The notes under the pieces were generated by a model. It did no database searches and was not told the origin of the DNA. It worked only from the letters and a program-made list of their open reading frames with translations. This document shows, one piece after another, positions 1-50,632 of a stretch of DNA of 64,000 nt. The position numbers and the translations under genes were made by a program. This DNA is from Patescibacteria group bacterium (lineage in GTDB: Bacteria > Patescibacteriota > Minisyncoccia > Moranbacterales > UBA2206), in the NCBI GenBank assembly GCA_022709735.1, contig JAKLIG010000001.1:20135-84134 (forward strand), in the 5' to 3' direction. Within the stretch, counting starts at the first letter, position 1. Each line of letters opens with the position of its first letter.

Positions 1-113
1 GAATTTGTTTTTGCGTTTCAATTTCTATCTTTTGCAAAATCAAAAACTCCAGCTTTTCTGGCGGGTTTATTTCTGAGGTTTCTTTAAATAATTGATGAAT
101 TTTTTGGCTCATA
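1..113 (-). CDS. Partial CDS (N-terminus only, start at 113) downstream of and co-oriented with the ECF sigma gene; possible anti-sigma factor
   Basis: Minus-strand ATG at 111-113 (revcomp of ggctcat) opens a reading frame MSQKIHQLFKETSEINPPEK... that runs off the window edge. Its position right after the sigma-factor stop is typical of anti-sigma partners. Function is inferred from position only. Confidence 0.3.
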
Positions 114-167
114 TTTTCTATACGATTTAAGAATTAAAAAAGGTGCAAAAAATCCTAACATCGAATG

Positions 168-725
168 TTAGGAAAGGTTTAGTATTTTTTTCAAAGCTAA
201 AAGCGCTCTTTGATGACGGCTTTTTATCGTGTTATAAGAAGTGTCCAAAATTTCTGAAATTTCCTGGAGAGAAAAGTCTTCTTTATAATGAAGAAGTAAA
301 ATTGTTCGATAATCGGCAGAAAGTTCTTCAAGTTTTTTCTCGAAATTTTTTTCTCTTTCCGCTTTTTCTAAAATTTCCAAAGGCAAAATTTCATCCGTTT
401 GCATATTTTCCAAATGATTATTTCCTTCCTCGTTAACAAAATTGGAAAAGGGGATAGTCTTTTTCTTTTTGAAATAATCCAAGGCGGTATTTTTAGCAAT
501 AGTGAAAATCCAAGTTTTGAAATTTTTGTTCGGTTTGAATTTCCGCAAATTCTTCCAAGCTTTGATAAAAGTTTCCTGCGTTAAATCATCCAGAATATCC
601 GGATCTTTTACCATAATTCGCAGGAAATTATAAACTGGCTTCAGATATTTTTTCAAAAGTTCGCCGAAAGCCTCGTCCTTTCCAGTCAAAAAATCCTCGA
701 TTATTTTTTTGTCTTCTTCGCTCAT
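168..725 (-). CDS. RNA polymerase sigma factor, ECF (sigma-70 region 2/region 4) family
   Basis: 185 aa. Region 2 motif ETFIKAWKNLRKF..NFKTWIFTIAKNTALDYFKKKK and region 4 HTH LQEISEILDTSYNTIKSRHQRALLALK. Confidence 0.85.
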   Translation of the reverse strand: MSEEDKKIIEDFLTGKDEAFGELLKKYLKPVYNFLRIMVKDPDILDDLTQETFIKAWKNLRKFKPNKNFKTWIFTIAKNTALDYFKKKKTIPFSNFVNEEGNNHLENMQTDEILPLEILEKAEREKNFEKKLEELSADYRTILLLHYKEDFSLQEISEILDTSYNTIKSRHQRALLALKKILNLS

Positions 726-802
726 ATTTTAACTATACTTTATCATACAAAAGAAAAACAAAAAACCTGCAAATATAATTGAAACAGGCTCTTGGCGACA
801 AA

Positions 803-1639
803 TTATTTTGTTAATAAGAATAATCCTACAAATAGCAAGATAAATATTCCAAATTTTAAAATTATATTTTTTTCCTTAAAATAAATTTTACCAGTAATAA
901 GTGACCAAAAAACCGACAAAGAACGCTCGCCAGTCATAATTATAGAAGCTGGCGCAAAGCCATAAGCGTAGCTGGTAAAAATTCCGCCAAAGCCTATAGA
1001 AGCAGACTGGATGAAAAATATCGGCTTGGTCAAAAACCTCAAAGGATTTTCTTTTGACATTATTTTTGCAAAAATAAAGAAAAAGACTAATAAGATAATC
1101 TTGATGAATAATTGTTCAGCTAATACTGAATTGTAGTGGGTTATATCGTATTTATAAAGAGAGATAGTAAAAACTGCGTTGATGGCAGTAAAAATAATTA
1201 GAAAAATCCCTTCTTTTTTAATATTTTTATTGATAAAAACAATAACTAGGGCAGTGATGATTACAAGCATCCCAATTATAGGATAAAAACCAATTTTGTA
1301 GCTTAAAATTAAATCAAACACTAAAAGCAGAGGTATTGTTCCAATCCTGACGAAACTAAAAGTTGTTCGGTCGGCCTTAATTATTGCCAAGACTGTTATG
1401 TAAGACTGAAGTATTTCTAAAAATGCGCGGAGCAGAAAAGTTGGAAGAGAAGCCAAGCTAAAAACAAAGTCGGTGCTTTTGAAAATGTATATGAGAATAA
1501 AAAAAATTGCTCCCCAGAAATAATTCAAAAAACCCATTGTGTAAGGGCTCTCCTCTTGGCTAATATTTTTGCTTTTACCAATTGAATCGGAAACCTCTTC
1601 AAAAAAAGCTCCGAAGGCTAATAATATTATACCAATCAT
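803..1639 (-). CDS. Polytopic membrane protein, possibly DMT/EamA-like transporter. Start trimmed to the internal ATG at 1639 because the longer ORF runs into tRNA-Ser.
   Basis: About 10 predicted hydrophobic helices. The ORF-track start at 1711 overlaps the tRNA at 1657-1743. Internal start gives MIGIILLAF... Confidence 0.55.
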   Translation of the reverse strand: MIGIILLAFGAFFEEVSDSIGKSKNISQEESPYTMGFLNYFWGAIFFILIYIFKSTDFVFSLASLPTFLLRAFLEILQSYITVLAIIKADRTTFSFVRIGTIPLLLVFDLILSYKIGFYPIIGMLVIITALVIVFINKNIKKEGIFLIIFTAINAVFTISLYKYDITHYNSVLAEQLFIKIILLVFFFIFAKIMSKENPLRFLTKPIFFIQSASIGFGGIFTSYAYGFAPASIIMTGERSLSVFWSLITGKIYFKEKNIILKFGIFILLFVGLFLLTK

Positions 1640-1656
1640 AAAGAGAAAAAAATTTG

Positions 1657-1743
1657 CGGAAAGGGTGGGATTTGAACCCACGGTCCAGTTGCCCAGACAA
1701 CACCTTAGCACGGTGCCGCTTTAGACCACTCAGCCACCTTTCC
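1657..1743 (-). tRNA. tRNA-Ser (anticodon GCU), class II with long variable arm
   Basis: Revcomp reads GGAAAGGTGGCTGAGTGGTCTAAAGCGGCACC-GTGCTAA-GGTGT + long variable arm + GGGTTCAAATCCCACCCTTTCCG. Anticodon loop is GUGCUAA. Confidence 0.8.
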
Positions 1744-1801
1744 AAAAAATATTTTTTTCACCGATAGTTTTTCTCGACCCCGCACCATTTTTTATTTTCT
1801 G

Positions 1802-1888
1802 CGGAAGCGAGAGGATTCGAACCTCTGGTCCCGTTTCCGAGACAACAGTTTTCAAGACTGTCGCCTTAAACCACTCGGCCACGCTTCC
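1802..1888 (-). tRNA. tRNA-Ser (anticodon UGA), class II
   Basis: Revcomp reads GGAAGCGTGGCCGAGTGGTTTAAGGCGACAGTCTTGAAAACTGTTGTCTCGGAAACGGGACCAGAGGTTCGAATCCTCTCGCTTCCG. Anticodon loop is CUUGAAA. Confidence 0.85.
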
Positions 1889-1904
1889 AGATAAATATTT
1901 ATAA

Positions 1905-1977
1905 TAAAAATGGTGTGGGGCAAGCTGTTCCCTTCCTACCTGCCGGCAGGCAGAAAACCGCTCAGGCACTCTTCCAG
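1905..1977 (-). pseudogene. Degenerate tRNA-Ser 5'-half-like fragment (acceptor + D-arm) followed by an imperfect copy of the 20-bp GC palindrome. Sits immediately 5' of tRNA-Ser(UGA) on the same strand.
   Basis: Minus strand reads GGAAGAGTGCCTGAGCGGTTTTCTGCCTGCCGGCAGGTAGGAAGGG..., about 75% identical to the first 30 nt of tRNA-Ser(UGA), then CTGCCTGCCGGCAGGTAG. No T-arm or matching 3' acceptor. Confidence 0.4.
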
Positions 1978-2053
1978 AAAGCCTATTTCAAATTTACCTC
2001 ATCTTGGCTATGAAAGCAAATATTGTTGTGCTATTATATAAGAAGCAAAAAAT

Positions 2054-2653
2054 ATGTATATACAAAAAAATAAAGAACAAATAGAACAAGAAGAAAAAGA
2101 AACGGAAGAAAAGGAAGAACAAAAACTTTTGCCACCAGATGATTTTTCCGAATTGGAATCTCCGCACGATATGCTGATTGAAAAATATTCCAAGGATGTT
2201 TTTTTGCATTGGCGCGCGCCGGAGTTTGAAACATTCGAGCGGGACCGCAAATGGTATCTTTATATTTCCGCCATCCTCATCGCGATTATTGCCTATGCAA
2301 TTTTTACCAACGGGCTTGTGATGGCGATTACTTTTATTTTGATCGGCGTGGTGGGTTATATTTATATTGAAAAAGAACCGCGAACGCTTGATTTTATGAT
2401 CACTAAAGACGGCGTAATTGCCGGCCGGGAAATTTATGACTTTGATAATTTAAAATCTTTTTGGATTTTTTATGAGGAAGACGGTCTTCGCGTCATCAGT
2501 CTTCACACAGAAAGTTATCTGGCGCCGTTTATCCATATCCCGATTCATGATCAGGACCCCTCGGAAATCAGAAAAATTCTTTTGCAATATATCCCAGAGG
2601 AAGAGCACAAACCGGGAATGATGGATACACTGGATCGATTGTTGAGATTATAA
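2054..2653 (+). CDS. Hypothetical protein with acidic N-terminus and two TM helices
   Basis: 199-aa ORF with no recognisable catalytic motif. Confidence 0.55.
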   Translation: MYIQKNKEQIEQEEKETEEKEEQKLLPPDDFSELESPHDMLIEKYSKDVFLHWRAPEFETFERDRKWYLYISAILIAIIAYAIFTNGLVMAITFILIGVVGYIYIEKEPRTLDFMITKDGVIAGREIYDFDNLKSFWIFYEEDGLRVISLHTESYLAPFIHIPIHDQDPSEIRKILLQYIPEEEHKPGMMDTLDRLLRL

Positions 2654-2667
2654 ACAATGAATTTAAT

Positions 2668-2750
2668 CCGGGGTGTAGTATAGCGGTAGTCGCCTCATCG
2701 GCGACCTTGGTCGTAGAGTGGCGACCCGCCGTAGAGGCGGGTACCATACG
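2668..2750 (+). pseudogene. tRNA-Pro 5'-half-like fragment followed by three short GC-rich hairpins. Not a complete tRNA.
   Basis: CCGGGGTGTAGTATAGCGGTAG closely mirrors the intact tRNA-Pro start CCGGGCTGTAGTATACCGGTAG but lacks a D-stem, anticodon arm or T-arm. It is followed by GTCGCC-tcatc-GGCGAC, GGTCG-tagagtgg-CGACC and CGCC-gtaga-GGCG hairpins. Confidence 0.35.
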
Positions 2751-2757
2751 ATTTATC

Positions 2758-2831
2758 CGGGCTGTAGTATACCGGTAGTACGCGTCCATGGGGTGGATGT
2801 AGACCGAGTTCAATTCTCGGCAGCCCGACCA
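2758..2831 (+). tRNA. tRNA-Pro (anticodon GGG), CCA encoded
   Basis: CGGGCTG-TA-GTATACCGGTAGTAC-G-CGTCC-ATGGGGT-GGATG-TAGAC-CGAGTTCAATTCTCG-CAGCCCG-A-CCA. Confidence 0.8.
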
Positions 2832-2852
2832 AATTAAATTTTTCAAAATTCA

Positions 2853-3371
2853 ATGGATATAATTTCACACGGCCTTTGGGGCTCGGCGGCGTTTGGAAGA
2901 AAAAATAAAAAAACTTTTTTGATAGCTTTTCTGATTGGATTGGCGCCGGACATGTTTTCTTTCGGCATCCTTTTTGTTTATAGAATTATTCTTCGTCTTG
3001 GATTTTTGCCAGAGCCTAGCATTTCTTTAGCGCCAGCACACTTCCCGGTGCCGATTTTTGTGTATAGTTTATATAATATAACGCATAGTCTGATTATTTT
3101 TGCTCTATTTTTTGGCGCAATTTGGCTGATATTTAAAAAGCCATTTTGGCCGATTTTAGCTTGGGGACTGCATATTTTAGTGGATATTCCAAGCCATTCT
3201 TTTGATTTTTTCCCGACGCCTTTTCTCTGGCCAATTTCTAATTTTAAATTTGATGGAATAGGATGGGGAAATCCAATCATATTTTTTCCGAATGTGATTT
3301 TGCTACTTGCAGTTTATGGTTTTTTATTTTTGAGAAAAAGAAAAAAGAAAAAAATTATTTCTTCAAACTAA
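2853..3371 (+). CDS. Hypothetical membrane protein (4-5 TM)
   Basis: 172-aa hydrophobic ORF with a Lys-rich C-terminus. Confidence 0.55.
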   Translation: MDIISHGLWGSAAFGRKNKKTFLIAFLIGLAPDMFSFGILFVYRIILRLGFLPEPSISLAPAHFPVPIFVYSLYNITHSLIIFALFFGAIWLIFKKPFWPILAWGLHILVDIPSHSFDFFPTPFLWPISNFKFDGIGWGNPIIFFPNVILLLAVYGFLFLRKRKKKKIISSN

Positions 3372-4167
3372 TTTCTTGTCTCGCAATCACTGCGCCGAAA
3401 ACTTTTTTTGCGCCGGCGGATTTCAGAATGCGTCCGGCTTCAAAAAGAGTGGAGCCAGTGGTCGAAATGTCGTCGATTAATAAAACGGTTTTATCTTGTA
3501 AAGCGACTCGAATTTTCGAATTGTCACTCGAATGATTCGAATGTTGATTTTGAAAATCCTTGTTTAAACCGAAAATATTTTTGACATTCTTTTGTCTTTC
3601 CTGATAATTTTTTATTTTCATCTGCGCGGTGGTATATTTTTTTCGGATAAGAAAATTTGAAATGACTGACAAGGGAAAGCCAGGTGTCAAAATTTCAGAA
3701 AGATTTTTAGCTAAAATTTCCGATTGGTTGAAACCGCGCCAGCGAAGGCGCCGAGAGTGAAGGGGAATGGGAATAATAAAATCAGGCAAGGGAAGATTGT
3801 GAAAAATAATCGCTTCGGAGATAATTTTAGCTAAAGGCGTGCCTAAATCAGGAATAAAATTATACTTAAAGCAATGAACAAGGCGGGAAATCCCGCTTTT
3901 TTCATATTTTGCGCTCACAATCAGGGCATCTAGTGGCCCAATTTCATTTTTTCCTAAAAATTTATCCTTGCACGAGGGGCAAATTCGTCCAGCGGGAGAA
4001 ATGGCTTTTTCGCAGTACGGGCAGACCTGAATGGGTAAAATCGAAATTTTTTTGGCGCATTCTTCGCAAATCCAATCGCCATATTTTTGACAAAAAAGAC
4101 AGTGAATAGGAAAGAGGGTATCGAGAATGAAATTTTGTAATTTTTCTAAATAATTAATTATGAACAT
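3355..4167 (-). CDS. comFC: ComF family protein (ComFC-like: double zinc ribbon + phosphoribosyltransferase domain)
   Basis: N-terminal CxxC...CxxC pairs (CLFCQKYGDWICEEC, CPYCEKAISPAGRICPSC). C-terminal PRTase motif VLLIDDISTTGSTL. Divergently adjacent to pilM. Confidence 0.8.
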   Translation of the reverse strand: MFIINYLEKLQNFILDTLFPIHCLFCQKYGDWICEECAKKISILPIQVCPYCEKAISPAGRICPSCKDKFLGKNEIGPLDALIVSAKYEKSGISRLVHCFKYNFIPDLGTPLAKIISEAIIFHNLPLPDFIIPIPLHSRRLRWRGFNQSEILAKNLSEILTPGFPLSVISNFLIRKKYTTAQMKIKNYQERQKNVKNIFGLNKDFQNQHSNHSSDNSKIRVALQDKTVLLIDDISTTGSTLFEAGRILKSAGAKKVFGAVIARQEISLKK

Positions 4168-4303
4168 ACTAGTATATTCGTAATAAATTAGAAAATAGTA
4201 AAGAGTTCCTGTGGATAACTTTCCTTATTAGTGTAAATTTGTAAATTATGGTATAATTAGTCTAGAAAAACAAGAAAGTAATTTAGATAAAAATAAAACA
4301 AAA

Positions 4304-5371
4304 ATGTTTGATTTTAGTTTTGGAAGAAAAAAAGTTTTAGGAATTGATATCGGCGCTTCCTCACTCAAAATAGTAGAATTGGAGCTTCGATCCGGAAAGC
4401 CTTATCTTTCTAATTATGCTTGGATGAAAATTCCGGATATTTCGGAAAAGAATAGCGACACGGGTTCTAATTTCTTTGAAAAAGCCATTCCGGAATATAT
4501 AAAAAAAGTTATTAAAACAGCTAATTTTAAGGCGAAAAAAGCCTATGTCTCTATCCCGTCCTTTGGTGGGCTTATAACGCTTATCGATTTTCCACAAATG
4601 GCGCCGGAAGATATGGAGCCAGCTATAAAATTTGAAGCGCATAAATATATCCCAACCTCTTTGGACGAAGTAGTTATCAGTTGGGAAATTGTGAAAAATG
4701 AAATAGAAAAGGAAAATTCTAACAAAAAAGTGCAAGTTCTTTTAGTAGCCGCTTCAAAAAATAAGGTATTGGCTTATGAAAAAATTATAAAAGATGCCGG
4801 ACTTAAGCTTTTGGGAATCGAAATGGAAAATTTGGCAATGGTTGACTCTTTAGTTGGTAATGATCCTGGCAATTTTATAATTGTAGATATAGGCTATCGC
4901 GTTTGCAATATAATTTATACGGAAAAAGGAATTATTAGAGCTAATAGGAATATTGATGCTGGAGGAGGCGATATTACGAAAACTATTTCTACGAGTTTGG
5001 AAATAACTTCAGAAAGAGCGGAAATAATGAAAATTTCTCAAAAAAATTTCTTCAATATTGAATCCAATCTTAATTTTCCTTCACTTGACCTGATTATTGG
5101 AGAAATATTGAGAATAACGAATGCTCTGCCAAAAAATGAAAATGGCTTGCAAATTGATGCATTAATTCTTTCTGGTGGCACAGCTGATCTCGTAGGTCTT
5201 GAAGGTTTCATTCAAAAAAAAGTTGGGGTAAAAACTATTATTGGCAATCCATTTGGGCGGGTCGGCTATGACAAAAAAAATAGTCTGGCTATAGAAAAAA
5301 TCAAAAACCAATTTCCTGTGGCTATGGGACTGGCGCTTAAGGGGCTGGAAAATATCCGCGAAAATAAATAA
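4304..5371 (+). CDS. pilM: Type IV pilus assembly protein PilM (actin-like ATPase fold)
   Basis: 355 aa. N-terminus VLGIDIGASSLKIVELE. Size and position (first gene of a pilMNO-like set) match PilM. Confidence 0.85.
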   Translation: MFDFSFGRKKVLGIDIGASSLKIVELELRSGKPYLSNYAWMKIPDISEKNSDTGSNFFEKAIPEYIKKVIKTANFKAKKAYVSIPSFGGLITLIDFPQMAPEDMEPAIKFEAHKYIPTSLDEVVISWEIVKNEIEKENSNKKVQVLLVAASKNKVLAYEKIIKDAGLKLLGIEMENLAMVDSLVGNDPGNFIIVDIGYRVCNIIYTEKGIIRANRNIDAGGGDITKTISTSLEITSERAEIMKISQKNFFNIESNLNFPSLDLIIGEILRITNALPKNENGLQIDALILSGGTADLVGLEGFIQKKVGVKTIIGNPFGRVGYDKKNSLAIEKIKNQFPVAMGLALKGLENIRENK

Positions 5372-12761: not shown

Positions 12762-13562
12762 ATGCTCATTATCTTTTTCATCCTTGGCCTTATTATCGGA
12801 AGTTTTTTGAATGTTTTGGCGTATCGGCTTCACACGGCCGAAGAGTTGTTTTTAGATCGCTCGCATTGCCCGCATTGCAAAAAACAAATCCGCTGGTATG
12901 ACAATATTCCGGTCATTAGTTTTATTCTTCTGAAATCCCGCTGTCGAGACTGCAAAGAAAAAATTTCTTGGCAATATCCAATCGTCGAAATTTTTACCGG
13001 CGTGATTTTCGCGCTGATTAGCTGGAAGTTTTTTGTTTTGACTGACAGCGCTTCTTGGATTTCTACCGCCTATTTTCTATTTGCTTCCAGCGCGCTCATC
13101 ACAATTTTAGTCTACGATTTTCTTTATATGGAAATTCCGGGATCAGTTCTTTGGACGGGAATTTTTGTTTCCATCGCGTTTGTATTGTTTTCCCAAGGCT
13201 CAACCTTGGGAAATCCCAAGGTTGAGCCTTGGGCAGGGGATGTTTATTCCAGTGTTCTGGCGGCTTTTTTAGCTTTTGTTTTTTTCTTTCTGCTTTCAGT
13301 TGGTTCAAAAGAAAAATGGATGGGCATGGGGGATGCCTATCTTGTCATTTTCCTCGGGTTAATTTTGGGTTTTCCGGAAATTCTTCTCGCGCTTTTTTTA
13401 GCCTTCTTTTTTGGGGCAGTTTATGGTATAATAATGCTGGCCCTAAAAAAGAAAAAGATGAAAAGTCAAGTGCCTTTTGCGCCGTTTTTAGTGCTTGGAA
13501 CATTCGTGGCTCTGCTTTTTTACACGCCAATAATAGATTGGTATTTCTCTTTATTTTATTAA
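12762..13562 (+). CDS. pilD: Prepilin peptidase PilD (A24 family leader peptidase/N-methyltransferase)
   Basis: CPHCKKQI...CRDCKEKI zinc tetracysteine between TM1 and TM2. 8 TM. Conserved Asp in GMGDAYLV. Confidence 0.85.
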   Translation: MLIIFFILGLIIGSFLNVLAYRLHTAEELFLDRSHCPHCKKQIRWYDNIPVISFILLKSRCRDCKEKISWQYPIVEIFTGVIFALISWKFFVLTDSASWISTAYFLFASSALITILVYDFLYMEIPGSVLWTGIFVSIAFVLFSQGSTLGNPKVEPWAGDVYSSVLAAFLAFVFFFLLSVGSKEKWMGMGDAYLVIFLGLILGFPEILLALFLAFFFGAVYGIIMLALKKKKMKSQVPFAPFLVLGTFVALLFYTPIIDWYFSLFY

Positions 13563-15253: not shown

Positions 15254-16507
15254 ATGCAAAAGAAAAATTCACCCTGTAGAATAAATTTTGTTTACAAAAT
15301 TATCCCGACAAGTCGGGATATTCGACAGGGTAAAAACGGTTCCGTTTTGATTGTTGCCCTGCTTATTTTAGCGATGATGTTGATTTCCGCGCTTAGCTTG
15401 GCTTTGGTGGCAGTCAGGGAAAGAAAAGCTTCTATTGGCGATGTTGATTCTAACAAAGCTTTTCAGAATGCCGATACTGGAATTGAAAGGGTGATGCAAC
15501 TTATAACAAGAGGAAATTTTGATTATATAGGTGGTGGTGGAACGAACAGCTTAATAACAAATATACCGACTTTTCCAAATGGTCAACAGCAGTTTAGATG
15601 TTTGCCAAGTGGTTACATAGAAGATAATAGTAGCAGTGAAAATTTTGTAGTAACGCTGGAAAAAACAAATGTCTCTGGAACCGGCTTGGAACAAATTAAT
15701 TGTAATAATTCAGAACTTGTTTCGAATATTGAAAAAATAAAATCAGTCGGTTCGTCTTCCAGCACAAAAAGAGCGGTGGAGGTGCTGGTGTCAAACAAAA
15801 TTACAAAATTATTGATGCATTTCGATAATAATTTTGATGATGTTTCCTATAGCGATCACAACGCGAGTTCTTCTGGGAGTGTAACTTTTAGCGTTGATAC
15901 TCCGACAGGTGATTTCGGCTCTAACAGCGCCTTGTTTAATTCTGCAGCCGGAGGGAGTTATCTAACGGTTGATTCTAGCGATGATTGGGATTTTCAAAAT
16001 CATGATTTTTCAATTGAAACAAGGATAAAATTTATTCCTCCACCAGCTCCAAATAGCAATCCAAATATAATTAATCATTGGAATGAAGATGGAAACAAAA
16101 GAGGGTTTAAATTATATTATGAACAAAGTTCTGGGAGAATAATTTTTAATTATTCAACTGATGGAAACGGTGGCTCTTCATCTCGTAATCTCTCTAGTGA
16201 TGATGCAAGGATTATTGAAAATGGCAATTGGCACCATGTACTTATTAATAGAAAAGGAGGGAAATTGTATTTCTTTATCGACGGAGAATTAAGAGGGAAT
16301 CCAAATTTTTCAACTAGCAGTGATTTAATCTATTATGATTCTGCCACTTCTCTTAAAATAGGAGCTGTTTTAAACGGCGGAACGCTAGAGGCTAATTCAC
16401 AATTTTTTGGTAACATGGACGAACTGCGCATTACTAAAGGTGTGGCCAGATATACTGAAAATTTTAATACTAAATTATGGACCATTCCGTACGAGTGGAA
16501 TAACTAA
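15254..16507 (+). CDS. PilX-like minor pilin N-terminus fused to a concanavalin A/LamG-like lectin domain (candidate pilus-tip adhesin). True start uncertain.
   Basis: GSVLIVALLILAMMLISALSLALVAV resembles the PilX N-terminal domain. The C-terminus (NGNWHHVLINRKGGKLYFFIDGELRG...DELRITKGVARYT) is LamG-like. A perfect hairpin TATCCCGACAAGTCGGGATA lies inside the annotated 5' end, so translation may begin later. Confidence 0.6.
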   Translation: MQKKNSPCRINFVYKIIPTSRDIRQGKNGSVLIVALLILAMMLISALSLALVAVRERKASIGDVDSNKAFQNADTGIERVMQLITRGNFDYIGGGGTNSLITNIPTFPNGQQQFRCLPSGYIEDNSSSENFVVTLEKTNVSGTGLEQINCNNSELVSNIEKIKSVGSSSSTKRAVEVLVSNKITKLLMHFDNNFDDVSYSDHNASSSGSVTFSVDTPTGDFGSNSALFNSAAGGSYLTVDSSDDWDFQNHDFSIETRIKFIPPPAPNSNPNIINHWNEDGNKRGFKLYYEQSSGRIIFNYSTDGNGGSSSRNLSSDDARIIENGNWHHVLINRKGGKLYFFIDGELRGNPNFSTSSDLIYYDSATSLKIGAVLNGGTLEANSQFFGNMDELRITKGVARYTENFNTKLWTIPYEWNN

Positions 16508-19225: not shown

Positions 19226-20689
19226 TTGATTAGAGAATTACACAATAAATTAATTAATAAAGAAATTACTTCTGTTGAATTAACACAACAGTATTTTGAC
19301 GCAATTTCTAAAAAAGACGGAGACGTCCATGCTTATTTGACCCTAACTAAAGAAGAAGCGCTTGAGCAGGCAAAAAAAGTGGATGAAAAAATTTCGCGTG
19401 GCGAAGAAATCGGAATTATTGAAGGAATTCCTTGCGCGATAAAAGATAATATCTGCATAAAAAATATCAGAACAACGGCGTCTTCAAAAATTTTGGATAA
19501 TTATATTGCGCCGTATGATGCAACGGTAGTTGAAAAAATAAGAGAAGCCGGCGCGGTTATTTTAGGAAAAACTAATCTGGACGAATTTGCGATGGGATCG
19601 TCTACGGAAACTAGCGCTTACGGAGCGACAAAAAATCCATATGACAACGAAAGAGTTCCGGGCGGAACTTCTGGCGGTAGCGCAGCGGCCGTGTCAGCTG
19701 ATATGGCGGTTTGGTCTCTTGGTTCAGATACGGGCGGTTCAATTCGCCAGCCAGCTTCCTTTTGCGGAGTAGTTGGACTAAAACCAACTTATGGCCGAGT
19801 GTCCCGTTATGGTCTTATGGCGATGGCATCAAGTTTTGATCAAATTGGTCCTATGACAAAAACAGTGGAAGATACAGCGATAATTCTGTCCATTATTTCC
19901 GGGAAAGATAATATGGACGCAACTTCTGCGCCGGATTTTGGCAAAAAATACGAAGATTATCTGACGGGTGAAATAAAAGGAATGAAAATTGGAATAGTCA
20001 AAGAATATTTGGAAAGTTTAAATAAGGAAATGAAAACAGAGATGGAAAAAGTAATTGAGCGATATAAAAAACTTGGAGCGGAAATTTGTGAAATTGAATT
20101 GCCCAATGCAAAGTATGCTTTGCCGACATATTATATAATTCAGCCAAGCGAGGTGAGTTCAAATCTTGCCAGGTTTGATGGAATAAAATATGGGATGCGG
20201 GCGGATGATAAAGAAAAAACAAATACGGCGGATTTAGGCGGATTGCCGCGGACGCTTCTGGAAACTTATTTGGATACCAGAAAATATAATTTAGGGGCGG
20301 AAGTGAAAAGAAGAATAATGCTGGGAACTTATGCGCTTTCTTCCGGATATTATGACGCCTATTATCTTCGGGCGCAAAAAGTTCGGACGCTAATTCGGAA
20401 AGATTTTGAAAAAGCATTTCAAAAAGTTGATGTGATTTTGACTCCAACTACGCCAACTCCAGCTTTCAAAATTGGAGAAAAAACCCAAGATCCATTGCAA
20501 ATGTATTTGGAAGATATTTTCACAATCACGGCCAACATCGCTGGCATTCCGGCTGTTTCTGTTCCGTGCGGTATGATAGAATGGGAAGGGAAGCAATTGC
20601 CAGCCGGATTCCAGCTGATGGGCAAATGGTTTGATGAAGAAAATTTGCTTTGCGTGGCACACGCGTTTGAAGTTAATTGTACGGAGTAA
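19226..20689 (+). CDS. gatA: Glutamyl-tRNA(Gln)/Asp-tRNA(Asn) amidotransferase subunit A (amidase signature)
   Basis: GGSSGGSAAAV amidase signature with Ser-cisSer-Lys triad context. 487 aa. Confidence 0.95.
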   Translation: MIRELHNKLINKEITSVELTQQYFDAISKKDGDVHAYLTLTKEEALEQAKKVDEKISRGEEIGIIEGIPCAIKDNICIKNIRTTASSKILDNYIAPYDATVVEKIREAGAVILGKTNLDEFAMGSSTETSAYGATKNPYDNERVPGGTSGGSAAAVSADMAVWSLGSDTGGSIRQPASFCGVVGLKPTYGRVSRYGLMAMASSFDQIGPMTKTVEDTAIILSIISGKDNMDATSAPDFGKKYEDYLTGEIKGMKIGIVKEYLESLNKEMKTEMEKVIERYKKLGAEICEIELPNAKYALPTYYIIQPSEVSSNLARFDGIKYGMRADDKEKTNTADLGGLPRTLLETYLDTRKYNLGAEVKRRIMLGTYALSSGYYDAYYLRAQKVRTLIRKDFEKAFQKVDVILTPTTPTPAFKIGEKTQDPLQMYLEDIFTITANIAGIPAVSVPCGMIEWEGKQLPAGFQLMGKWFDEENLLCVAHAFEVNCTE

Positions 20690-20700
20690 AAATAAAAAAT

Positions 20701-21216: not shown

Positions 21217-21219
21217 AAG

Positions 21220-21248
21220 TTGACAGTCGATATTTATATAGTTAGAAT
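21220..21248 (+). promoter_or_regulatory. Consensus sigma-70-type promoter (TTGACA-17 bp-TAGAAT) driving the tRNA cluster
   Basis: ttgaca gtcgatatttatatagt tagaat. Identical hexamers and spacing to the rRNA promoter at 38005. Confidence 0.55.
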
Positions 21249-21288
21249 GTTTAGTAGCGTCTGATTTAGACGATATTTTGAAATTATA

Positions 21289-21373
21289 GCGGGGTAGTCC
21301 CGCTATGGCGGGACGGGTGGCTCACCTGCCTGCCGGCAGGCAGGTAATCCCAGGTCGTGGGTTCAAATCAAAA
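21289..21373 (+). pseudogene. Degenerate tRNA-Met-like copy: D-arm replaced by hairpin GTCCCGC-tatg-GCGGGAC, anticodon loop replaced by the perfect 20-bp palindrome, 3' acceptor missing
   Basis: GCGGGGTAG|tcccgctatggcgggac|GGGTGGCTCA|cctgcctgccggcaggcagg|taaTCCCAGGTCGTGGGTTCAAATCa aligns segment by segment to the intact tRNA-Met at 21626-21697. Confidence 0.45.
21325..21344. repeat. Perfect 20-bp palindrome cctgcctgccggcaggcagg (copy 2 of 3)
   Basis: Self-complementary. Identical copy at 49669-49688, imperfect copy at 1935-1954. Confidence 0.85.
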
Positions 21374-21386
21374 AAACATAAATTTT

Positions 21387-21662
21387 ATGTATGTGATATA
21401 CGCTTTATTTTTTAAAAATATAAAAAGAGTGTATGTTGGGATGACTAGTAAATATAATCAAAGAATGGAAGAACATAAAAAAGGCAAAACACGCTCAACG
21501 AAAAATAGAGGAGAATTTATATCAAAAATAATTGAGAAATGCGAAACAAGAAGAGAGGCGAGATTAAGGGAAAAATATTGGAAATCTGGTTGTGGAAAGG
21601 AAGAATTAAAAAAGAAATATTATAGCGGGGTAGAGCAGTCTGGTAGCTCGGGTGGCTCATAA
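21387..21662 (+). CDS. Small GIY-YIG nuclease-domain protein (YhbQ/UPF0213-like). 3' end of the ORF runs into tRNA-Met.
   Basis: MYVIYALFFKNIKRVYVGMTSKYNQRMEEHKKGK...RREARLREKYWKS matches the GIY-(10-11)-YVG...R..EH..G...E pattern. The frame continues 37 nt into the tRNA before a stop, so the true C-terminus is uncertain. Confidence 0.65.
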   Translation: MYVIYALFFKNIKRVYVGMTSKYNQRMEEHKKGKTRSTKNRGEFISKIIEKCETRREARLREKYWKSGCGKEELKKKYYSGVEQSGSSGGS

Positions 21663-21697
21663 CCACCAGGTCGTGGGTTCAAATCCCACCCCCGCAA
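21626..21697 (+). tRNA. tRNA with CAU anticodon (elongator Met or Ile2/lysidine type)
   Basis: GCGGGGTAGAGCAGTCTGGTAGCTCGGGTGGCTCATAACCACCAGGTCGTGGGTTCAAATCCCACCCCCGCA. Confidence 0.85.
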
Positions 21698-21714
21698 CAA
21701 TTTGTCTTCTTAAG

Positions 21715-21902
21715 GCAGGGTAGCTCAGACTTGTCCCCCACCAAAATGCCGGCGTAGCTCAGTTGGTTAGAGCGTGGGACTCATAAGCCCAAGGTCAGTG
21801 GTTCAACTCCACTCGCCGGTACCAGGCATTTTGGTGGGGGATGAAGTTAGAGCACAGCCTTCATAAGGCTGGGGTCGTGGGTCCGAGTCCCACCCCTGCT
21901 AC
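21715..21902 (+). tRNA. Candidate split/nested tRNA (anticodon CAU). Its D-loop carries a 111-nt insertion that is a complete tRNA flanked by a perfect 17-bp inverted repeat.
   Basis: 5' part GGCAGGG-TA-GCTCAG, 3' part GTTAGAGC-A-CAGCC-TTCATAA-GGCTG-GGGTC-GTGGG-TCCGAGT-CCCAC-CCCTGCT-A. The acceptor halves pair (G1-U72 wobble). The D-stem GCTC/GAGC is separated by tcccccaccaaaatgcc-[inner tRNA]-ggcattttggtggggga. Confidence 0.45.
21749..21825 (+). tRNA. tRNA-fMet-like (anticodon CAU, GGG/CCC in anticodon stem), CCA encoded; nested inside the preceding tRNA
   Basis: GCCGGCG-TA-GCTCAGTTGGTTAGAGC-G-TGGGA-CTCATAA-GCCCA-AGGTC-AGTGGTTCAACTCCACT-CGCCGGT-A-CCA. Three consecutive G:C pairs in the anticodon stem are an initiator hallmark. 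Confidence 0.8.
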
Positions 21903-21917
21903 AAAATTTTTAAAATG

Positions 21918-21991
21918 GGGGCGTAGCTCAGTTGGTTAGAGCGACTGCCTGTCACGCAGTAGGTCACCGGTTCGAGTCCGGCCGTCCCCGC
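21918..21991 (+). tRNA. tRNA-Asp (anticodon GUC)
   Basis: GGGGGCG-TA-GCTCAGTTGGTTAGAGC-G-ACTGC-CTGTCAC-GCAGT-AGGTC-ACCGGTTCGAGTCCGGC-CGTCCCC-G. Confidence 0.85.
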
Positions 21992-38457: not shown

Positions 38458-41668
<3,211 letters not shown>

Positions 41669-49504: not shown

Positions 49505-50632
49505 ATGAAAATTGGCATTGATGGCTCGCGAGCCTTCCTAAAACAAAGAACGGGCATTGAAGAATATTCCTATCAGGTAATAAAGCACTTGAGAGAAAAA
49601 TTAAAAACATCTCAAGTTGTTTTGTATTTGCGAAAAAATCAGGAAGTTGATTTTGAATTGCCGGAAAACCTGCCTGCCGGCAGGCAGGGTTGGAAAATCA
49701 AAATAATAAAATGGCCGAGATTTTGGACGCAAATCGGACTATCTTTTGAATTATTTTTTCATCCAGTTGATGTGCTATTCATCCCGGCCCATATATTGCC
49801 ACTATATCATCCGAAGAAATCAATAGTTACTATTCATGGCTTGGAATTTGAGGTTACAAAAGAAGCCTATTCTTTTTGGGAGAAAATATATATGCATCTT
49901 TCGATAAAAAAATCCTGTTTTTGGGCGAGCAAAGTTATCGCGGTTTCAAAAAATACAAAAGAAGACCTGATTGAATTTTATAAAGTACCAGAAAAAAAGA
50001 TCGAGGTGATATATGAAGGAGTATCAACTTGTCATGCCGAACTCGTTTCGGCATCTCATAAGATCCTGAAACAAGTTCAGGATGACAATGCCAAATACCT
50101 ATTATTTATTGGTCGATTAGAAAAACGAAAAAATGTTGAAGGCATAATTGAAGCATATAAAATTTTAAAAGAAAAATATAATATACCTCACAGTTTAGTA
50201 TTGGTTGGTTCGCCTGGATATGGATATGAAAGTATAAAATTGAAAATTGAGAATTGTTTGAAAATTGAAAATTGTAAATTGAAAATTATAGAGCTTGGTT
50301 ATATTGAAGAAGCAGTCAAGTGGCAATTATTGCATGATGCTGATGTATTCTTATTCCCATCATTCTATGAAGGTTTTGGTTTGCCGATTTTGGAAGCGCA
50401 AGTGCAAGGTGTTCCGGTTGTCACTTCCAATGTTTCTTCGCTTCCGGAAATCGGCGGAGACAGCGTGGCCTACTGCACACCCGGAGAACCAATAAGTATC
50501 GCTGATTCGACCTATAAGATTTTAAGCGACGAAAATTTTAGAAATGGTATAATAAAAAAGGGTTATGAAAATGTAAAAAAATTCAGTTGGGATAAGTGTG
50601 CGGAAGAAATCGCTAAATTATTAATAAATTGA
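49505..50632 (+). CDS. Glycosyltransferase family 4 (GT1-fold, RfaG-like) with two in-frame repeat-derived insertions
   Basis: C-terminal GT4 block FLFPSFYEGFGLPILEAQVQGVPVVTS. Contains the 20-bp palindrome (49669-49688, encodes LPAGRQG) and a TTGAAAATTG repeat stretch (50238-50288, encodes KLKIENCLKIENCKLKI). Confidence 0.85.
   Translation: MKIGIDGSRAFLKQRTGIEEYSYQVIKHLREKLKTSQVVLYLRKNQEVDFELPENLPAGRQGWKIKIIKWPRFWTQIGLSFELFFHPVDVLFIPAHILPLYHPKKSIVTIHGLEFEVTKEAYSFWEKIYMHLSIKKSCFWASKVIAVSKNTKEDLIEFYKVPEKKIEVIYEGVSTCHAELVSASHKILKQVQDDNAKYLLFIGRLEKRKNVEGIIEAYKILKEKYNIPHSLVLVGSPGYGYESIKLKIENCLKIENCKLKIIELGYIEEAVKWQLLHDADVFLFPSFYEGFGLPILEAQVQGVPVVTSNVSSLPEIGGDSVAYCTPGEPISIADSTYKILSDENFRNGIIKKGYENVKKFSWDKCAEEIAKLLIN
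49669..49688. repeat. Perfect 20-bp palindrome cctgcctgccggcaggcagg (copy 3), in-frame within the GT4 CDS
   Basis: Identical to 21325-21344. Confidence 0.85.
50238..50288. repeat. ATTGAAA mini-repeat stretch in-frame within the GT4 CDS
   Basis: ttgaaaattgagaattgtttgaaaattgaaaattgtaaattgaaaatt. Confidence 0.65.

What the first reader, a model, noticed from the sequence alone, without database searches (positions are those of the whole stretch)
1905..2750. Recurrent pattern: a degenerate 5'-half copy of a tRNA plus GC-rich palindromic hairpins immediately upstream of the intact tRNA (Ser-UGA, Pro-GGG and Met loci)
Three independent loci share the pattern. (a) 1905-1977, minus strand: GGAAGAGTGCCTGAGCGGTT... 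is about 75% identical to the start of tRNA-Ser(UGA). It is followed by the palindrome CTGCCTGCCGGCAGGTAG and sits directly 5' of tRNA-Ser(UGA). (b) 2668-2750: CCGGGGTGTAGTATAGCGGTAG mirrors the tRNA-Pro 5' end. It is followed by three GC hairpins and sits directly 5' of tRNA-Pro. (c) The Met locus described above. All three lie in the presumptive leader of the tRNA transcript. This looks like a systematic element (tRNA-5'-mimic leader or footprint of a tRNA-targeting mobile element) rather than random decay.
Basis: seen in the sequence. Interest (0 to 1): 0.6.

Follow-up and report, generated by a model that had tools for sequence, protein, structure and literature searches.

The report
Mobile-cassette scars beside tRNA genes
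The partial tRNA copies and GC-rich hairpins just upstream of three tRNA genes in this Moranbacteria (candidate phyla radiation) genome are leftovers of small selfish DNA cassettes that break into a tRNA gene while bringing a replacement copy, which is a little-described way for mobile DNA to live inside essential genes.

Summary
All three fragments exist, and the Ser and Pro fragments are identical in four independent assemblies.

They are not random decay and not a dedicated regulatory leader. Comparison with 80+ related Moranbacteria loci shows that each fragment is the displaced 5' part of the resident tRNA gene.

- **Ser(UGA):** the resident gene was split in its anticodon loop by a ~150-nt cassette. 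The cassette is a second tRNA-Ser(UGA) allele clamped by a conserved inverted repeat (CCCCRCACCA-T5 / A5-TGGTGCGGGG). The window has since lost the outer 3' half.
- **Met:** one Met gene is split in its D-loop by the same kind of cassette. Another Met gene was displaced by a GIY-YIG nuclease ORF that carries a new tRNA copy.
- **Pro:** the fragment is an ORF-less unit (5' fragment plus double hairpin) also found in other species, tandemly in one.

The hairpins are of two sorts. One is the double-hairpin module that accompanies these cassettes. The other is an independent 20-nt palindrome, CCTGCCTGCCGGCAGGCAGG. That palindrome also sits in frame in a glycosyltransferase gene and occurs in at least 9 other species' loci.

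One cassette is 112/113 identical in two species whose resident tRNA halves differ by about 25%, so these cassettes move. The nuclease step and the reason insertions fall in loops are inferred. I found no published description of tRNA-in-tRNA cassettes.

The parts
1921..1975 (-). 5' half of the resident ('outer') tRNA-Ser(UGA) gene: acceptor 5' strand, D-arm, and anticodon stem 5' strand up to CTTG. It is now a dead remnant with 2 substitutions.
   Evidence: Alignment with L010, L007, L021 and the uninterrupted gene of L009.
1936..1953 (.). Copy of the 20-nt palindrome family (CTACCTGCCGGCAGGCAG, 1 mismatch), inserted in the D-loop of the outer Ser fragment.
   Evidence: L007 has the same palindrome at a different D-loop position, so the two insertions were independent.
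1906..1920 (-). Left inverted repeat of the tRNA cassette (CCCCACACCATTTTT).
1801..1888 (-). Intact 'inner' tRNA-Ser(UGA). It is the cargo of the cassette and a different allele from the outer gene.
1778..1792 (-). Right inverted repeat of the cassette (AAAAATGGTGCGGGG).
1759..1777 (-). TCGAG flank followed by AAAAACTATCGGTG. This is the last remnant of the outer anticodon loop and stem. The rest of the outer 3' half is deleted.
   Evidence: Alignment A3.
2669..2690 (+). 5' fragment (nt 1-22) of a tRNA-Pro(GGG) gene of the CGGGGTG allele.
   Evidence: z=10.5. (22/22 identical to the L019 allele)..
2689..2742 (+). GC-rich hairpin module: GTCGCCTCATCGGCGAC, then GGTCGTAGAGTGGCGACC, then ACCCGCCGTAGAGGCGGGT. 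The first and third hairpins form the double hairpin shared with L019, L008 and L017.
2758..2831 (+). Intact tRNA-Pro(GGG) of the CGGGCTG allele.
21220..21248 (+). Resident promoter-like site TTGACA-17-TAGAAT of the tRNA operon.
   Evidence: Conserved in L085, L087, L089 and L091.
21288..21369 (+). Displaced resident tRNA-Met copy, now a pseudogene. Its D-arm is replaced by the hairpin TCCCGCTATGGCGGGA (21298-21313). The 20-nt palindrome sits in its anticodon (21325-21344). It is truncated in the T-loop.
   Evidence: L085 has the uninterrupted gene behind the same upstream flank.
21384..21662 (+). Small GIY-YIG nuclease ORF. It reads into the intact tRNA-Met, and its stop codon lies in the anticodon loop.
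   Evidence: Pfam PF01541, E=4e-12.
21624..21698 (+). Intact tRNA-Met (initiator-like), restored by the GIY-YIG cassette.
21714..21729 (+). 5' part (acceptor strand and D-stem) of an outer tRNA-Met-like gene that is split in its D-loop.
   Evidence: The uninterrupted orthologue is present in L085, L087 and L089. Fold.
21730..21846 (+). Cassette made of CTTG + GTCCCCCACCAAAATGCC, the inner tRNA-Met (21748-21824), then GGCATTTTGGTGGGGG + ATGAAG.
21847..21901 (+). 3' part of the outer tRNA-Met-like gene (D-stem 3' strand, anticodon arm, T-arm, acceptor 3' strand).
   Evidence: Rfam weak tRNA hit of 32 bits. Fold.
49669..49688 (.). The same 20-nt palindrome inside a glycosyltransferase gene, read in frame as LPAGRQG.
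   Evidence: It is a 7-residue insertion relative to 9 of 12 homologues.

Best explanation
**What the fragments are.** The fragments are scars of small selfish cassettes that insert into tRNA genes and carry their own replacement for the gene they break. The organism is a Candidatus Moranbacteria MAG. Its resident promoter and the 5' part of the resident tRNA gene stay in place. The cassette lands downstream of them, in a loop-coding position of the tRNA gene.

**Two cassette forms occur in this window.**
- *Type 1 (Ser-UGA; the second Met).* A complete cognate tRNA gene of another allele is clamped between a conserved GC-rich inverted repeat: CTTG-CCCCSCACCA-W4-5 ... W4-5-TGGTGSGGGG-TGAAG. 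It is inserted into the anticodon, D- or T-loop, replacing about 4-5 nt there. The host keeps a working tRNA (the inner one). The outer gene is left as two halves that decay. In the window the outer Ser has lost its 3' half.
- *Type 2 (the first Met; Pro as an ORF-less relic).* A short GIY-YIG nuclease ORF is followed by a copy of the tRNA's 5' portion. This copy rejoins the resident 3' portion to give an intact gene. The resident 5' portion is displaced upstream.

**What the hairpins are.**
- Some belong to a double-hairpin module that regularly accompanies type-2 cassettes.
- Others are copies of an independent mini-palindrome, CCTGCCTGCCGGCAGGCAGG. It lands in loops of dead tRNA copies, in the centres of other palindromes, and in frame in protein genes.

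**Shown.**
- The anatomy described above.
- Empty and filled sites among relatives.
- Inter-species near-identity of a cassette.
- Association of GIY-YIG ORFs with tRNA genes.
- Independent palindrome insertions.

**Inferred.**
- A nuclease (the GIY-YIG protein or one acting in trans) opens the empty tRNA gene, and repair copies the cassette in.
- The cognate-only pattern arises because a tRNA cassette can survive only where it complements the gene it destroys.
- The GC clamp insulates the inner pre-tRNA from its near-identical outer halves.
For: **Split-gene anatomy.** In L010 and L007 the outer halves equal the uninterrupted tRNA-Ser(UGA) of L009 except for one missing T. The window aligns to them column by column.

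**A cassette family.**
- 12 of 209 tRNAs have flanking inverted repeats of at least 12 matches.
- 11 of those 12 share one repeat family.
- Their cargo is Ser-UGA, Pro-CGG, Pro-GGG, Arg-GCG or Met-CAU.
- Each lies inside a cognate outer tRNA.
- All 12 distinct insertions fall in unpaired tRNA positions. If about 40% of positions are unpaired, the probability is 0.4^12 = 2e-5.

**Mobility.**
- The Arg cassette is 112/113 identical in L015 and L031. Their outer halves differ by about 25%, and the neighbouring ORF is 66% identical at the nucleotide level.
- Allele roles are swapped in L021/L109 relative to the window, L007 and L010.

**Which copy is resident.** L085, L087 and L089 have the same promoter and flank followed by uninterrupted Met genes. 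The upstream pseudo-Met in the window is therefore the resident copy.

**GIY-YIG association.**
- Pfam PF01541, E=4e-12.
- 13 of 14 GIY-YIG ORFs in the loci lie within 127 nt of a tRNA, p=4e-8.
- A stereotyped layout recurs in L059, L071, L031 and L046: 5' fragment, then double hairpin, then GIY-YIG ORF, then intact tRNA.
- An ORF-less layout of the same kind (5' fragment, double hairpin, intact tRNA-Asp) occurs in L089.

**Pro unit.** It is shared with L019 (tandem there), L008 and L017.

**Extent and enrichment.**
- 88 tRNA-fragment segments were found in the 632,688 bases of window plus loci scanned.
- GC hairpins are 7.8-fold enriched within 25 nt of fragments, p=2e-15.

**The palindrome as an insertion.** It adds 7 residues to the glycosyltransferase relative to 9 of 12 homologues. 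It is present in at least 9 other species' loci.
Against: - No nuclease activity or target site has been shown.
- The GIY-YIG proteins are only about 80-90 residues. No DNA-binding domain was detected, and only sub-threshold matches to intron endonucleases were found.
- Type-1 cassettes carry no ORF at all, so their mobilising enzyme is unknown.
- A type-2 insertion regenerates the full tRNA sequence downstream. How that copy would escape re-cutting is unexplained. Tandem units in L063, L060 and L019 may be the consequence.
- If the outer gene is dead, selection alone does not explain why insertions are confined to loops.
- Outer halves in several species still keep perfect acceptor pairing. 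Either the insertions are recent or the halves are still used.
- The comparison covers the same few syntenic tRNA loci in relatives. It is not a genome-wide census.
Confidence: 0.75

Rival explanations
1. Ordinary tandem duplication of tRNA genes followed by random decay of the upstream copy. On this view the GC hairpins are incidental.
For: - Relatives do carry tandem isoacceptor genes, such as Pro-CGG next to Pro-GGG in L014, L017 and L025.
- The window's Ser fragment shows substitutions and a deletion.
Against: - The arrangement is nested, not tandem.
- A conserved inverted repeat flanks the inner tRNA in 11 cases.
- One cassette is 112/113 identical between species whose resident genes have diverged.
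- GIY-YIG ORFs sit at the junctions.
- The same hairpin modules recur in different species and in different tRNA types.
Confidence: 0.05
2. A functional tRNA-mimic leader. On this view the 5' mimic plus hairpins is a selected cis-acting RNA that controls processing, stability or transcription of the downstream tRNA (or of the GIY-YIG mRNA). Possible roles are a processing decoy, a 5' stabiliser, or an attenuator.
For: - The fragments lie between the resident promoter and the intact tRNA.
- In 17 related loci a Ser-specific unit has this layout: exact copy of tRNA nt 1-18, two hairpins, a T-run, then an AT hairpin. It gives 21 strong covariance-model matches.
- 11 of its 16 hairpin pairs show compensatory changes.
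- The 18-nt mimic is identical to the adjacent tRNA in every species examined.
Against: - This unit is absent from the window.
- The window fragments differ in length, content and state of decay.
- Close relatives lack them entirely: L009 and L016.
- Units occur in tandem arrays (L063, L060, L019), which is typical of repeated insertion or unequal exchange.
- Covariation in DNA palindromes can also be maintained at the DNA level.
- No Rfam family matches.
Confidence: 0.12
3. att-site scars of integrase-driven genomic islands or prophages that integrated into tRNA genes and were later deleted.
For: - Serine recombinase genes lie next to the Met/Asp tRNA cluster in L089 and L091, and an HTH protein gene does so in L087.
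- Many loci carry 3' fragments (nt 55-74) of tRNA-Arg 36-160 nt downstream of the intact gene. That is the classical att pattern.
Against: - In the window the duplicated parts are 5' portions lying upstream, not 3' portions lying downstream.
- The inserts are 80-300 nt.
- None of the listed ORFs in 1-5000 or 20500-23000 was recognised as an integrase or recombinase on reading their translations. These ORFs were not scanned against Pfam.
- Whole cognate tRNAs clamped by inverted repeats are not what integrases leave behind.
Confidence: 0.05
4. The nested genes are functional composite genes. On this view the transcript is processed by RNase P and RNase Z into the inner tRNA plus a two-piece (split) or re-ligated outer tRNA. 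That would be a bacterial counterpart of archaeal split or intron-containing tRNAs.
For: - The composite transcripts are predicted to fold coherently. The outer acceptor, anticodon and T arms form, along with a long clamp helix bearing the inner cloverleaf. For the Met composite, z=-7.3. For the L010 Ser composite, z=-4.2.
- Outer halves keep acceptor complementarity in 9 species.
- Insertions occur only in loops.
Against: - The junctions do not form a bulge-helix-bulge motif. Both irregularities lie on the 3' strand (inspection; folds).
- Anticodon-loop insertions remove 4-5 loop nucleotides, including part of the anticodon, so splicing could not restore it.
- The window's outer Ser has lost its whole 3' half.
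- Other outer genes (L072, L015-Arg) are visibly decayed.
Confidence: 0.05

Closest known systems
Free-standing GIY-YIG homing endonuclease genes next to or within their target genes. Examples are phage T4 SegB in the tRNA gene cluster (PMC2330249), and from my own recollection the Allomyces mitochondrial atp6 insertion, where an endonuclease ORF brings a replacement gene end and leaves the old end as a fragment (Paquin et al. 1994).
   Same: - A GIY-YIG ORF directly abuts a tRNA gene.
- Presence or absence varies among relatives.
- The cassette carries a copy of part of the target, so the gene stays functional and a displaced fragment remains.
   Different: - These proteins are about 80-90 residues with only the catalytic domain.
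- The duplicated part is the 5' portion of a tRNA.
- The host is a cellular bacterium (CPR), not a phage or organelle.
- Cleavage has not been demonstrated.
Mobile GC-rich palindromic clusters and (double) hairpin elements of AT-rich organelle genomes. Examples are yeast mitochondrial GC clusters (PMC4478555) and repetitive hairpin-forming or double-hairpin elements (PMC2800124). From my own recollection, Neurospora PstI palindromes flank mitochondrial tRNA genes, and Rickettsia palindromic elements lie inside genes.
   Same: - Short GC-rich palindromes occur in a 36.5% GC genome.
- Identical copies occur at unrelated sites and in several species.
- Insertions are found in frame in protein genes and within RNA genes.
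- Nested or merged copies occur.
- They are associated with tRNA genes.
   Different: - The host is a free-living or episymbiotic bacterial lineage.
- The element is only 20 nt.
- There is a marked preference for loop positions of dead tRNA copies and for palindrome centres.
- Some hairpins carry a whole tRNA gene in their loop.
tRNA-gene-targeting integrative elements (islands and prophages with att duplications).
   Same: - They insert into tRNA genes at the anticodon or T-loop.
- The gene is reconstituted by element-borne sequence.
- A partial tRNA copy is left behind.
   Different: - The duplication is 5'-sided.
- The inserts are tiny and have no integrase.
- The cargo is a complete cognate tRNA clamped by inverted repeats.
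Archaeal intron-containing or split tRNAs, and bacterial group I introns in tRNA genes, including those of Patescibacteria (PMC13011429).
   Same: tRNA genes are interrupted in the anticodon, D- or T-loop in a lineage known for interrupted RNA genes.
   Different: - There is no ribozyme core. No Rfam intron hit was found, and the inserts are 100-150 nt.
- There is no bulge-helix-bulge motif.
- Loop nucleotides are missing.
- The insert is itself a tRNA.

Membership tests
Free-standing GIY-YIG homing endonuclease cassette | Encodes a GIY-YIG catalytic domain. | tested here: met
   PF01541 matches at E=4e-12 for the window ORF and 4e-11 for the L008 ORF.
Free-standing GIY-YIG homing endonuclease cassette | Presence/absence polymorphism at a fixed site of a conserved gene among relatives. 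| tested here: met
   L085, L087 and L089 have the same promoter and flank with an uninterrupted tRNA-Met and no GIY-YIG ORF. GIY-YIG ORFs abut tRNAs in 13 of 14 cases.
Free-standing GIY-YIG homing endonuclease cassette | A sequence-specific DNA-binding region in addition to the catalytic domain, as in I-TevI and Seg proteins. | tested here: not met
   The proteins are 79-92 residues. No second Pfam or NCBIfam domain was found. TIGR01453 matches only below its cut-off. No PDB relative was found by sequence.
Free-standing GIY-YIG homing endonuclease cassette | Cleaves the cassette-free allele near the insertion site. | not testable with these tools
   This needs biochemistry.
Mobile GC-rich palindromic mini-elements (GC clusters, hairpin elements, RPE-like) | Identical or near-identical palindromes at several unrelated loci, above chance. 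| tested here: met
   There are 3 copies in the window against 0 in shuffles. 14 pattern matches (up to 3 mismatches) fall in the window and 9 other loci, and a few of them are probably T-arm look-alikes.
Mobile GC-rich palindromic mini-elements (GC clusters, hairpin elements, RPE-like) | Insertion demonstrated against homologues that lack it. | tested here: met
   LPAGRQG is a 7-residue insertion relative to 9 of 12 glycosyltransferase homologues. The D-loop copy is present in L007 and absent in L010.
Mobile GC-rich palindromic mini-elements (GC clusters, hairpin elements, RPE-like) | Target-site duplication or an associated transposase (for example RAYT). | tested here: inconclusive
   No consistent duplication is seen at the junctions. 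No transposase search was done.
Integrase-mediated tRNA att-site scar | An integrase or recombinase gene and a kilobase-scale element lie between the repeats, and the 3' tRNA portion is duplicated downstream. | tested here: not met
   In the window the 5' portions are duplicated upstream, the inserts are 80-300 nt, and no listed ORF near either locus was recognised as a recombinase on reading (not Pfam-scanned). Recombinases are present only in some relatives.
Archaeal-type spliced or split tRNA (bulge-helix-bulge intron) | A bulge-helix-bulge motif at the exon-intron junctions, with exons that restore a 7-nt anticodon loop. | tested here: not met
   In the junction sequences both irregularities are on the 3' strand, and 4-5 loop nucleotides are missing.
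Group I intron in a tRNA gene | A ribozyme core detectable by covariance model. | tested here: not met
   No intron family appears in Rfam scans of 1400-3100 at E<=10 or of the whole window at gathering score.
Known cis-regulatory leader RNA (T-box and similar) | A match to a curated RNA family. | tested here: not met
   Searches returned only tRNA and chance-level hits.

The most novel reading that the evidence does not exclude
The inverted-repeat-clamped tRNA genes may be a previously undescribed class of bacterial mobile element: self-complementing 'tRNA-in-tRNA' cassettes. On this reading they insert, guided by nucleic-acid structure, into loop positions of the cognate tRNA gene. They spread between species and alternate between two alleles that invade each other. 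They survive because they replace the essential gene they destroy. A bolder extension is that the composite transcript also yields a usable two-piece outer tRNA.
Probability: 0.4. Interest if true: 0.85.

Novelty: new variant of a known kind. Interest (0 to 1): 0.68.

Why it matters
CPR/Patescibacteria genomes are tiny, and I am assuming most tRNA genes are single-copy. That assumption was not tested here. If it holds, an element living inside tRNA genes has to solve the problem of not killing its host.

These cassettes solve it by carrying the replacement, which is a clean natural example of gene replacement as a persistence strategy.

**Practical consequences.**
- tRNA finders and annotation pipelines will mis-call or miss such loci. 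Here ARAGORN ignored the outer genes, and Rfam gave a weak spurious tRNA call (32 bits at 21833-21901).
- tRNA allele turnover by horizontal cassettes can mislead tRNA-based phylogeny and codon-usage inference.
- Short palindromes inserted in frame add 7-14 residues to proteins in this window.

**Conceptual consequences.**
- The work extends the hairpin-element and homing-nuclease biology known from AT-rich mitochondria and phages to a large, uncultured bacterial radiation.
- It gives a testable substrate, empty versus filled tRNA sites, for the abundant and uncharacterised small GIY-YIG proteins of these bacteria.

Tried and rejected
- **Public metagenome scan for the repeat arm.** The pattern was TGYCCCGCACCATTT. 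Only L109 was a true element, identical in type to L021. My single metagenome scan therefore added almost nothing.
- **Rfam scans.** Scans of the window regions and of L063 found no family other than tRNA.
- **Single-sequence folds of the fragments.** These were uninformative. The window Ser fragment gave z=-1.1 and the Pro fragment z=-2.5.
- **Sequence searches for the GIY-YIG protein.** PDB gave nothing and NCBIfam gave nothing above its cut-offs.
- **Pro fragment as a decayed tRNA-Pro(CGG) tandem partner.** I considered this because relatives have CGG and GGG genes in tandem. I rejected it because the fragment is 22/22 identical to a Pro(GGG) allele and is homologous to the L019 unit.
- **Ser fragment as part of an SRP, tmRNA or other ncRNA.** No support was found.
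- **Assembly chimera.** Rejected.
- **AATTTACGAAGTAAAT stretch of the Ser-specific unit as a relic of the GIY-YIG N-terminus (..ILRS..).** It shares a 10-mer with the L008 ORF. It also behaves as a covarying AT hairpin, so this stays unresolved.
- **Literature searches.** Searches found no description of nested tRNA cassettes or of these palindromes in CPR. The only tRNA-interruption paper for this phylum deals with group I introns.
Full report
**Source and setting.** The window comes from a Candidatus Moranbacteria (CPR/Patescibacteria) metagenome-assembled genome. It lies on a 326-kb contig that was recovered in several independent assemblies. Its GC content is 36.5%. ARAGORN finds six tRNA genes:

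| tRNA | Coordinates | Strand |
|---|---|---|
| Ser-GCU | 1656-1743 | - |
| Ser-UGA | 1801-1888 | - |
| Pro-GGG | 2758-2831 | + |
| Met (first) | 21624-21698 | + |
| Met (second) | 21748-21824 | + |
| Asp | 21917-21991 | + |

Rfam adds a weak tRNA call at 21833-21901.

- Against 500 shuffles, the Pro fragment (z=10.5) and the Met fragment (z=11.7) are far beyond chance.
- The Ser fragment is 17/21 identical to the start of tRNA-Ser(UGA). On its own it is only marginal: z=4.1, with 2 of 500 shuffles as good.
- The 18-mer palindrome CTGCCTGCCGGCAGGCAG occurs three times, at 1936, 21326 and 49670, against none in shuffles.
- GC-rich hairpins are about nine-fold over-represented: 21 against 2.3.
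- The Ser and Pro fragments are letter-perfect in four separately assembled records, so this is not an assembly artefact.

**What the Ser fragment is.** I fetched 80 syntenic loci from other Moranbacteria species, using the conserved ORF that lies between the Ser and Pro genes. Three of them are decisive.

- In L009 the position next to the conserved promoter region holds an ordinary, uninterrupted tRNA-Ser(UGA).
- In L010 and L007 that same gene is identical apart from one missing T, but it is split in its anticodon loop by a ~150-nt insert.
- The insert has three parts: TCCCGCACCATTTTT, a second tRNA-Ser(UGA) of a different allele, and AAAAATGGTGCGGGA. The intact outer 3' half follows it.

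The window aligns to these column by column. Its 'fragment' at 1975-1921 is the outer 5' half. The repeat arms are at 1920-1906 and 1792-1778. The annotated tRNA-Ser(UGA) is the inner cargo. Of the outer 3' half only AAAAACTATCGGTG survives. The palindrome at 1953-1936 is a separate insertion in the outer D-loop. L007 carries the same palindrome at a different D-loop position, so the two insertions were independent.

**A cassette family.** Among 209 tRNAs in the window and loci, 12 have flanking inverted repeats of at least 12 matches. In a mismatched-flank control the maximum was 12, reached in 3 cases. Eleven of the 12 belong to one repeat family: (C/T)TG-CCCC(G/C)(C/T)ACCA-(A/T)n ... TGGT(G/A)(C/G)GGGG-TGAAG.

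- The cargo is Ser-UGA, Pro-CGG, Pro-GGG, Arg-GCG or Met-CAU.
- Outside the repeats always lie the two halves of a cognate tRNA of another allele.
- Insertion points are the anticodon loop (Ser, Pro), the T-loop (Arg in L015 and L031; a second insert in L015 Pro), the D-loop (Arg in L072; Met in the window), or the unpaired position 26 (L015 Pro-GGG).
- All 12 distinct events are therefore in unpaired positions (0.4^12 = 2e-5).

**The window's second Met gene.** This is one such cargo. It sits in the D-loop of an outer Met-like gene (21714-21729 and 21847-21901). The uninterrupted orthologue of that outer gene is present in L085, L087 and L089. The composite is predicted to fold as an outer cloverleaf with a long clamp helix bearing the inner cloverleaf (z=-7.3).

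**Evidence that cassettes move.**

- The Arg cassette, including its repeats, is 112/113 identical in L015 and L031. The outer halves differ at roughly a quarter of positions, and the adjacent ORF is 66% identical at the nucleotide level.
- For Ser the roles of the two alleles are swapped in L021/L109 relative to the window, L007 and L010. Each allele can therefore be the invader of the other.
- L009 is an empty site.

**The Met1 locus and GIY-YIG cassettes.** The conserved promoter TTGACA-17-TAGAAT lies at 21220-21248 and is also present in L085, L087, L089 and L091. It is followed by a run of elements.

- First comes a tRNA-Met copy (21288-21369). Its D-arm is replaced by TCCCGCTATGGCGGGA, its anticodon is split by the 20-nt palindrome, and it ends in the T-loop.
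- Next comes a short ORF with a GIY-YIG domain (PF01541, E=4e-12).
- This ORF runs into the intact tRNA-Met.

Relatives have the intact gene directly behind the same flank. The upstream copy is therefore the displaced resident gene, and the cassette supplied the ORF plus a new 5' portion.

This is a general arrangement. Of 14 GIY-YIG ORFs in the loci, 13 lie within 127 nt of a tRNA, mostly directly 5' and co-oriented (p=4e-8). L059, L071/L077, L031 and L046 all show the same order:

1. a tRNA 5' fragment of 12-20 nt;
2. a GC-rich double hairpin;
3. a GIY-YIG ORF;
4. the intact cognate tRNA.

L089 shows the same fragment plus double hairpin in front of tRNA-Asp, without an ORF.

**The Pro fragment.** Window 2669-2742 is homologous to a unit in L019 made of CGGGGTGTAGTATAGCGGTAG + GTCGCCTCATCGGCGAC + CCCGCCGAGGAGGCGGG + TACGC. 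That unit is repeated in tandem before an intact tRNA-Pro(GGG) of the same allele. It is also homologous to pieces in L008 and L017. The window copy has one extra 20-nt hairpin. L016 has the Pro gene with no fragment. I read this as an ORF-less version of the GIY-YIG-type arrangement.

**The palindromes.** CCTGCCTGCCGGCAGGCAGG matches in 9 other loci as well as the window. A few of those matches are probably T-arm look-alikes. Its locations include:

- D-, anticodon- and T-loops of tRNA fragments;
- once nested inside another copy (L007);
- protein-coding genes.

In the window's glycosyltransferase gene it adds LPAGRQG where 9 of 12 homologues have nothing.

GC hairpins lie within 25 nt of tRNA fragments 7.8 times more often than expected (p=2e-15). 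In total, 88 tRNA-fragment segments were found in the 632,688 bases of window plus loci scanned. The caveat is that these are the same few syntenic loci in many species, not a whole-genome survey.

**A related Ser-specific unit.** In 17 related loci, though not in the window, tRNA-Ser genes are preceded by a ~110-nt unit. It consists of an exact copy of tRNA nt 1-18, two hairpins, a T-run and an AT hairpin. It is sometimes in tandem. Eleven of its 16 hairpin pairs show compensatory changes. This is the best evidence for the functional-leader reading. It is equally compatible with a structured mobile unit, so I leave it open.

**Mechanism.**

- *Shown:* the anatomy, empty and filled sites, cross-species cassette identity, the GIY-YIG/tRNA association, and independent palindrome insertions.
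- *Inferred:*
  - A nuclease opens the empty tRNA gene and repair copies the cassette in. The nuclease would be either the small GIY-YIG protein or one acting in trans on the ORF-less cassettes.
  - Cognate-only nesting reflects survival. If, as I assume but did not test, these genomes have single-copy tRNA genes, a cassette is tolerated only where its cargo complements the gene it breaks.
  - The GC clamp keeps the inner pre-tRNA from mispairing with its near-identical outer halves, and it may be an RNase III-type processing stem.
- *Unexplained:*
  - Why insertions are confined to loops if the outer gene is dead.
  - How the regenerated target escapes re-cutting.
  - What moves a 20-nt palindrome.

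The loop and palindrome-centre preference suggests a mechanism that acts on hairpin tips in single-stranded or extruded DNA, or in RNA. That is speculation.

**Comparison with the known.** The logic matches three known kinds of system.

- Free-standing GIY-YIG homing genes, such as T4 SegB in a tRNA cluster (PMC2330249). From memory, it also matches the Allomyces atp6 case.
- GC-rich hairpin or double-hairpin mobile elements of AT-rich mitochondria (PMC4478555, PMC2800124).
- tRNA-targeting integrative elements.

It fails the tests for group I introns (no ribozyme), for bulge-helix-bulge introns, and for integrase scars.

Five literature searches found no description of nested tRNA cassettes or of these palindromes in CPR. 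The only tRNA-interruption paper for this phylum concerns group I introns (PMC13011429).

**Verdict.** This is a real, non-random and recurrent feature. The specific form is unusual and apparently undescribed. It combines cognate tRNA genes clamped by a conserved inverted repeat and nested in loops of the resident gene, GIY-YIG/double-hairpin cassettes, and a 20-nt palindrome that also colonises proteins.

Noticed in passing
window 21714-21901: A tRNA-Met gene (21748-21824) is nested in the D-loop of another tRNA-Met-like gene. The outer gene's other arms are intact, and the composite folds as a cloverleaf with a 22-bp extension (z=-7.3). Rfam's weak tRNA call at 21833-21901 is the outer 3' part plus a fortuitous 5' strand.
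   Followed up: yes
window 21384-21662: The GIY-YIG ORF overlaps the intact tRNA-Met by 39 nt and uses the TAA within the CTCATAA anticodon loop as its stop codon. The L008 GIY-YIG ORF likewise reads into tRNA-Ser(GCU).
   Followed up: partly
window 50050-50110: A second in-frame palindromic insertion lies in the same glycosyltransferase gene. It encodes ..HAELVSASHKILKQVQDD.., is shared only with homologue P0241, and sits in a region that varies among homologues.
   Followed up: partly
window 13192-13233; 15301-15320; 36155-36168: Further GC-rich perfect palindromes lie inside long ORFs and are read in frame. One is a 42-nt palindrome, CCCAAGGCTCAACCTTGGG..CCCAAGGTTGAGCCTTGGG, encoding SQGSTLGNPKVEPWAG. 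The others are TATCCCGACAAGTCGGGATA and GCTCCCGCGGGAGC. They are probably other families of the same kind of element.
   Followed up: no
window 38465-41678: The 23S rRNA match spans 3214 nt against a 2925-nt model. The gene therefore probably carries about 290 nt of insertion(s), as is common in CPR. A GC hairpin, ATCCCGCCAAGGCGGGAT, lies just upstream at 38372-38389.
   Followed up: no
L063 2969-3193 and 3663-3773; L005 3708-3814; 17 loci in all: A conserved ~110-nt unit lies directly 5' of tRNA-Ser genes. It consists of an exact copy of tRNA nt 1-18, two covarying hairpins, a T-run and an AT hairpin. It gives 21 matches of at least 79 bits to model R1 and is sometimes in tandem. It is absent from the window. 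It could be a structured RNA or a mobile unit.
   Followed up: partly
L085 3276-3935; L089 3433-5043; L091 3953-5305; L087 3229-3906: In relatives, the Met/Asp tRNA cluster orthologous to window 21200-22000 hosts other mobile genes. These are a LAGLIDADG endonuclease ORF between the Met and Asp genes, large serine recombinases, and an HTH_23 protein. This tRNA cluster is a general hotspot.
   Followed up: partly
L063, L065, L067, L074, L075, L078, L080, L081, L083 (about 36-160 nt 3' of tRNA-Arg-GCG): 3' fragments (nt 55-74) of tRNA-Arg(GCG) recur downstream of the intact gene at similar spacings of about 145-160 nt in six loci. This is the classical att-like orientation and suggests a further conserved small insert in the T-loop.
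   Followed up: no
L010 3380-3630 (minus strand), L091 3190-3670: Other GC-rich repeat families flank tRNA genes in relatives. Examples are CTTCGCTACGCTGAAGCGTAGCTACGGCGTGACGCAGTCCGC repeated after two tRNAs in L010, and GCGAAAAATT..CGCGGCAAGCCGGC repeats in L091.
   Followed up: no
alignment A2 columns 60-75 (window 49660-49690): Three other homologues carry a 7-residue insertion at the same glycosyltransferase site, with different sequence or register: LPAGETG in P0243, AGETGLP in P0258 and ADEAGLP in P0270. This suggests either an old insertion that is diverging or a recurrent target site.
   Followed up: no
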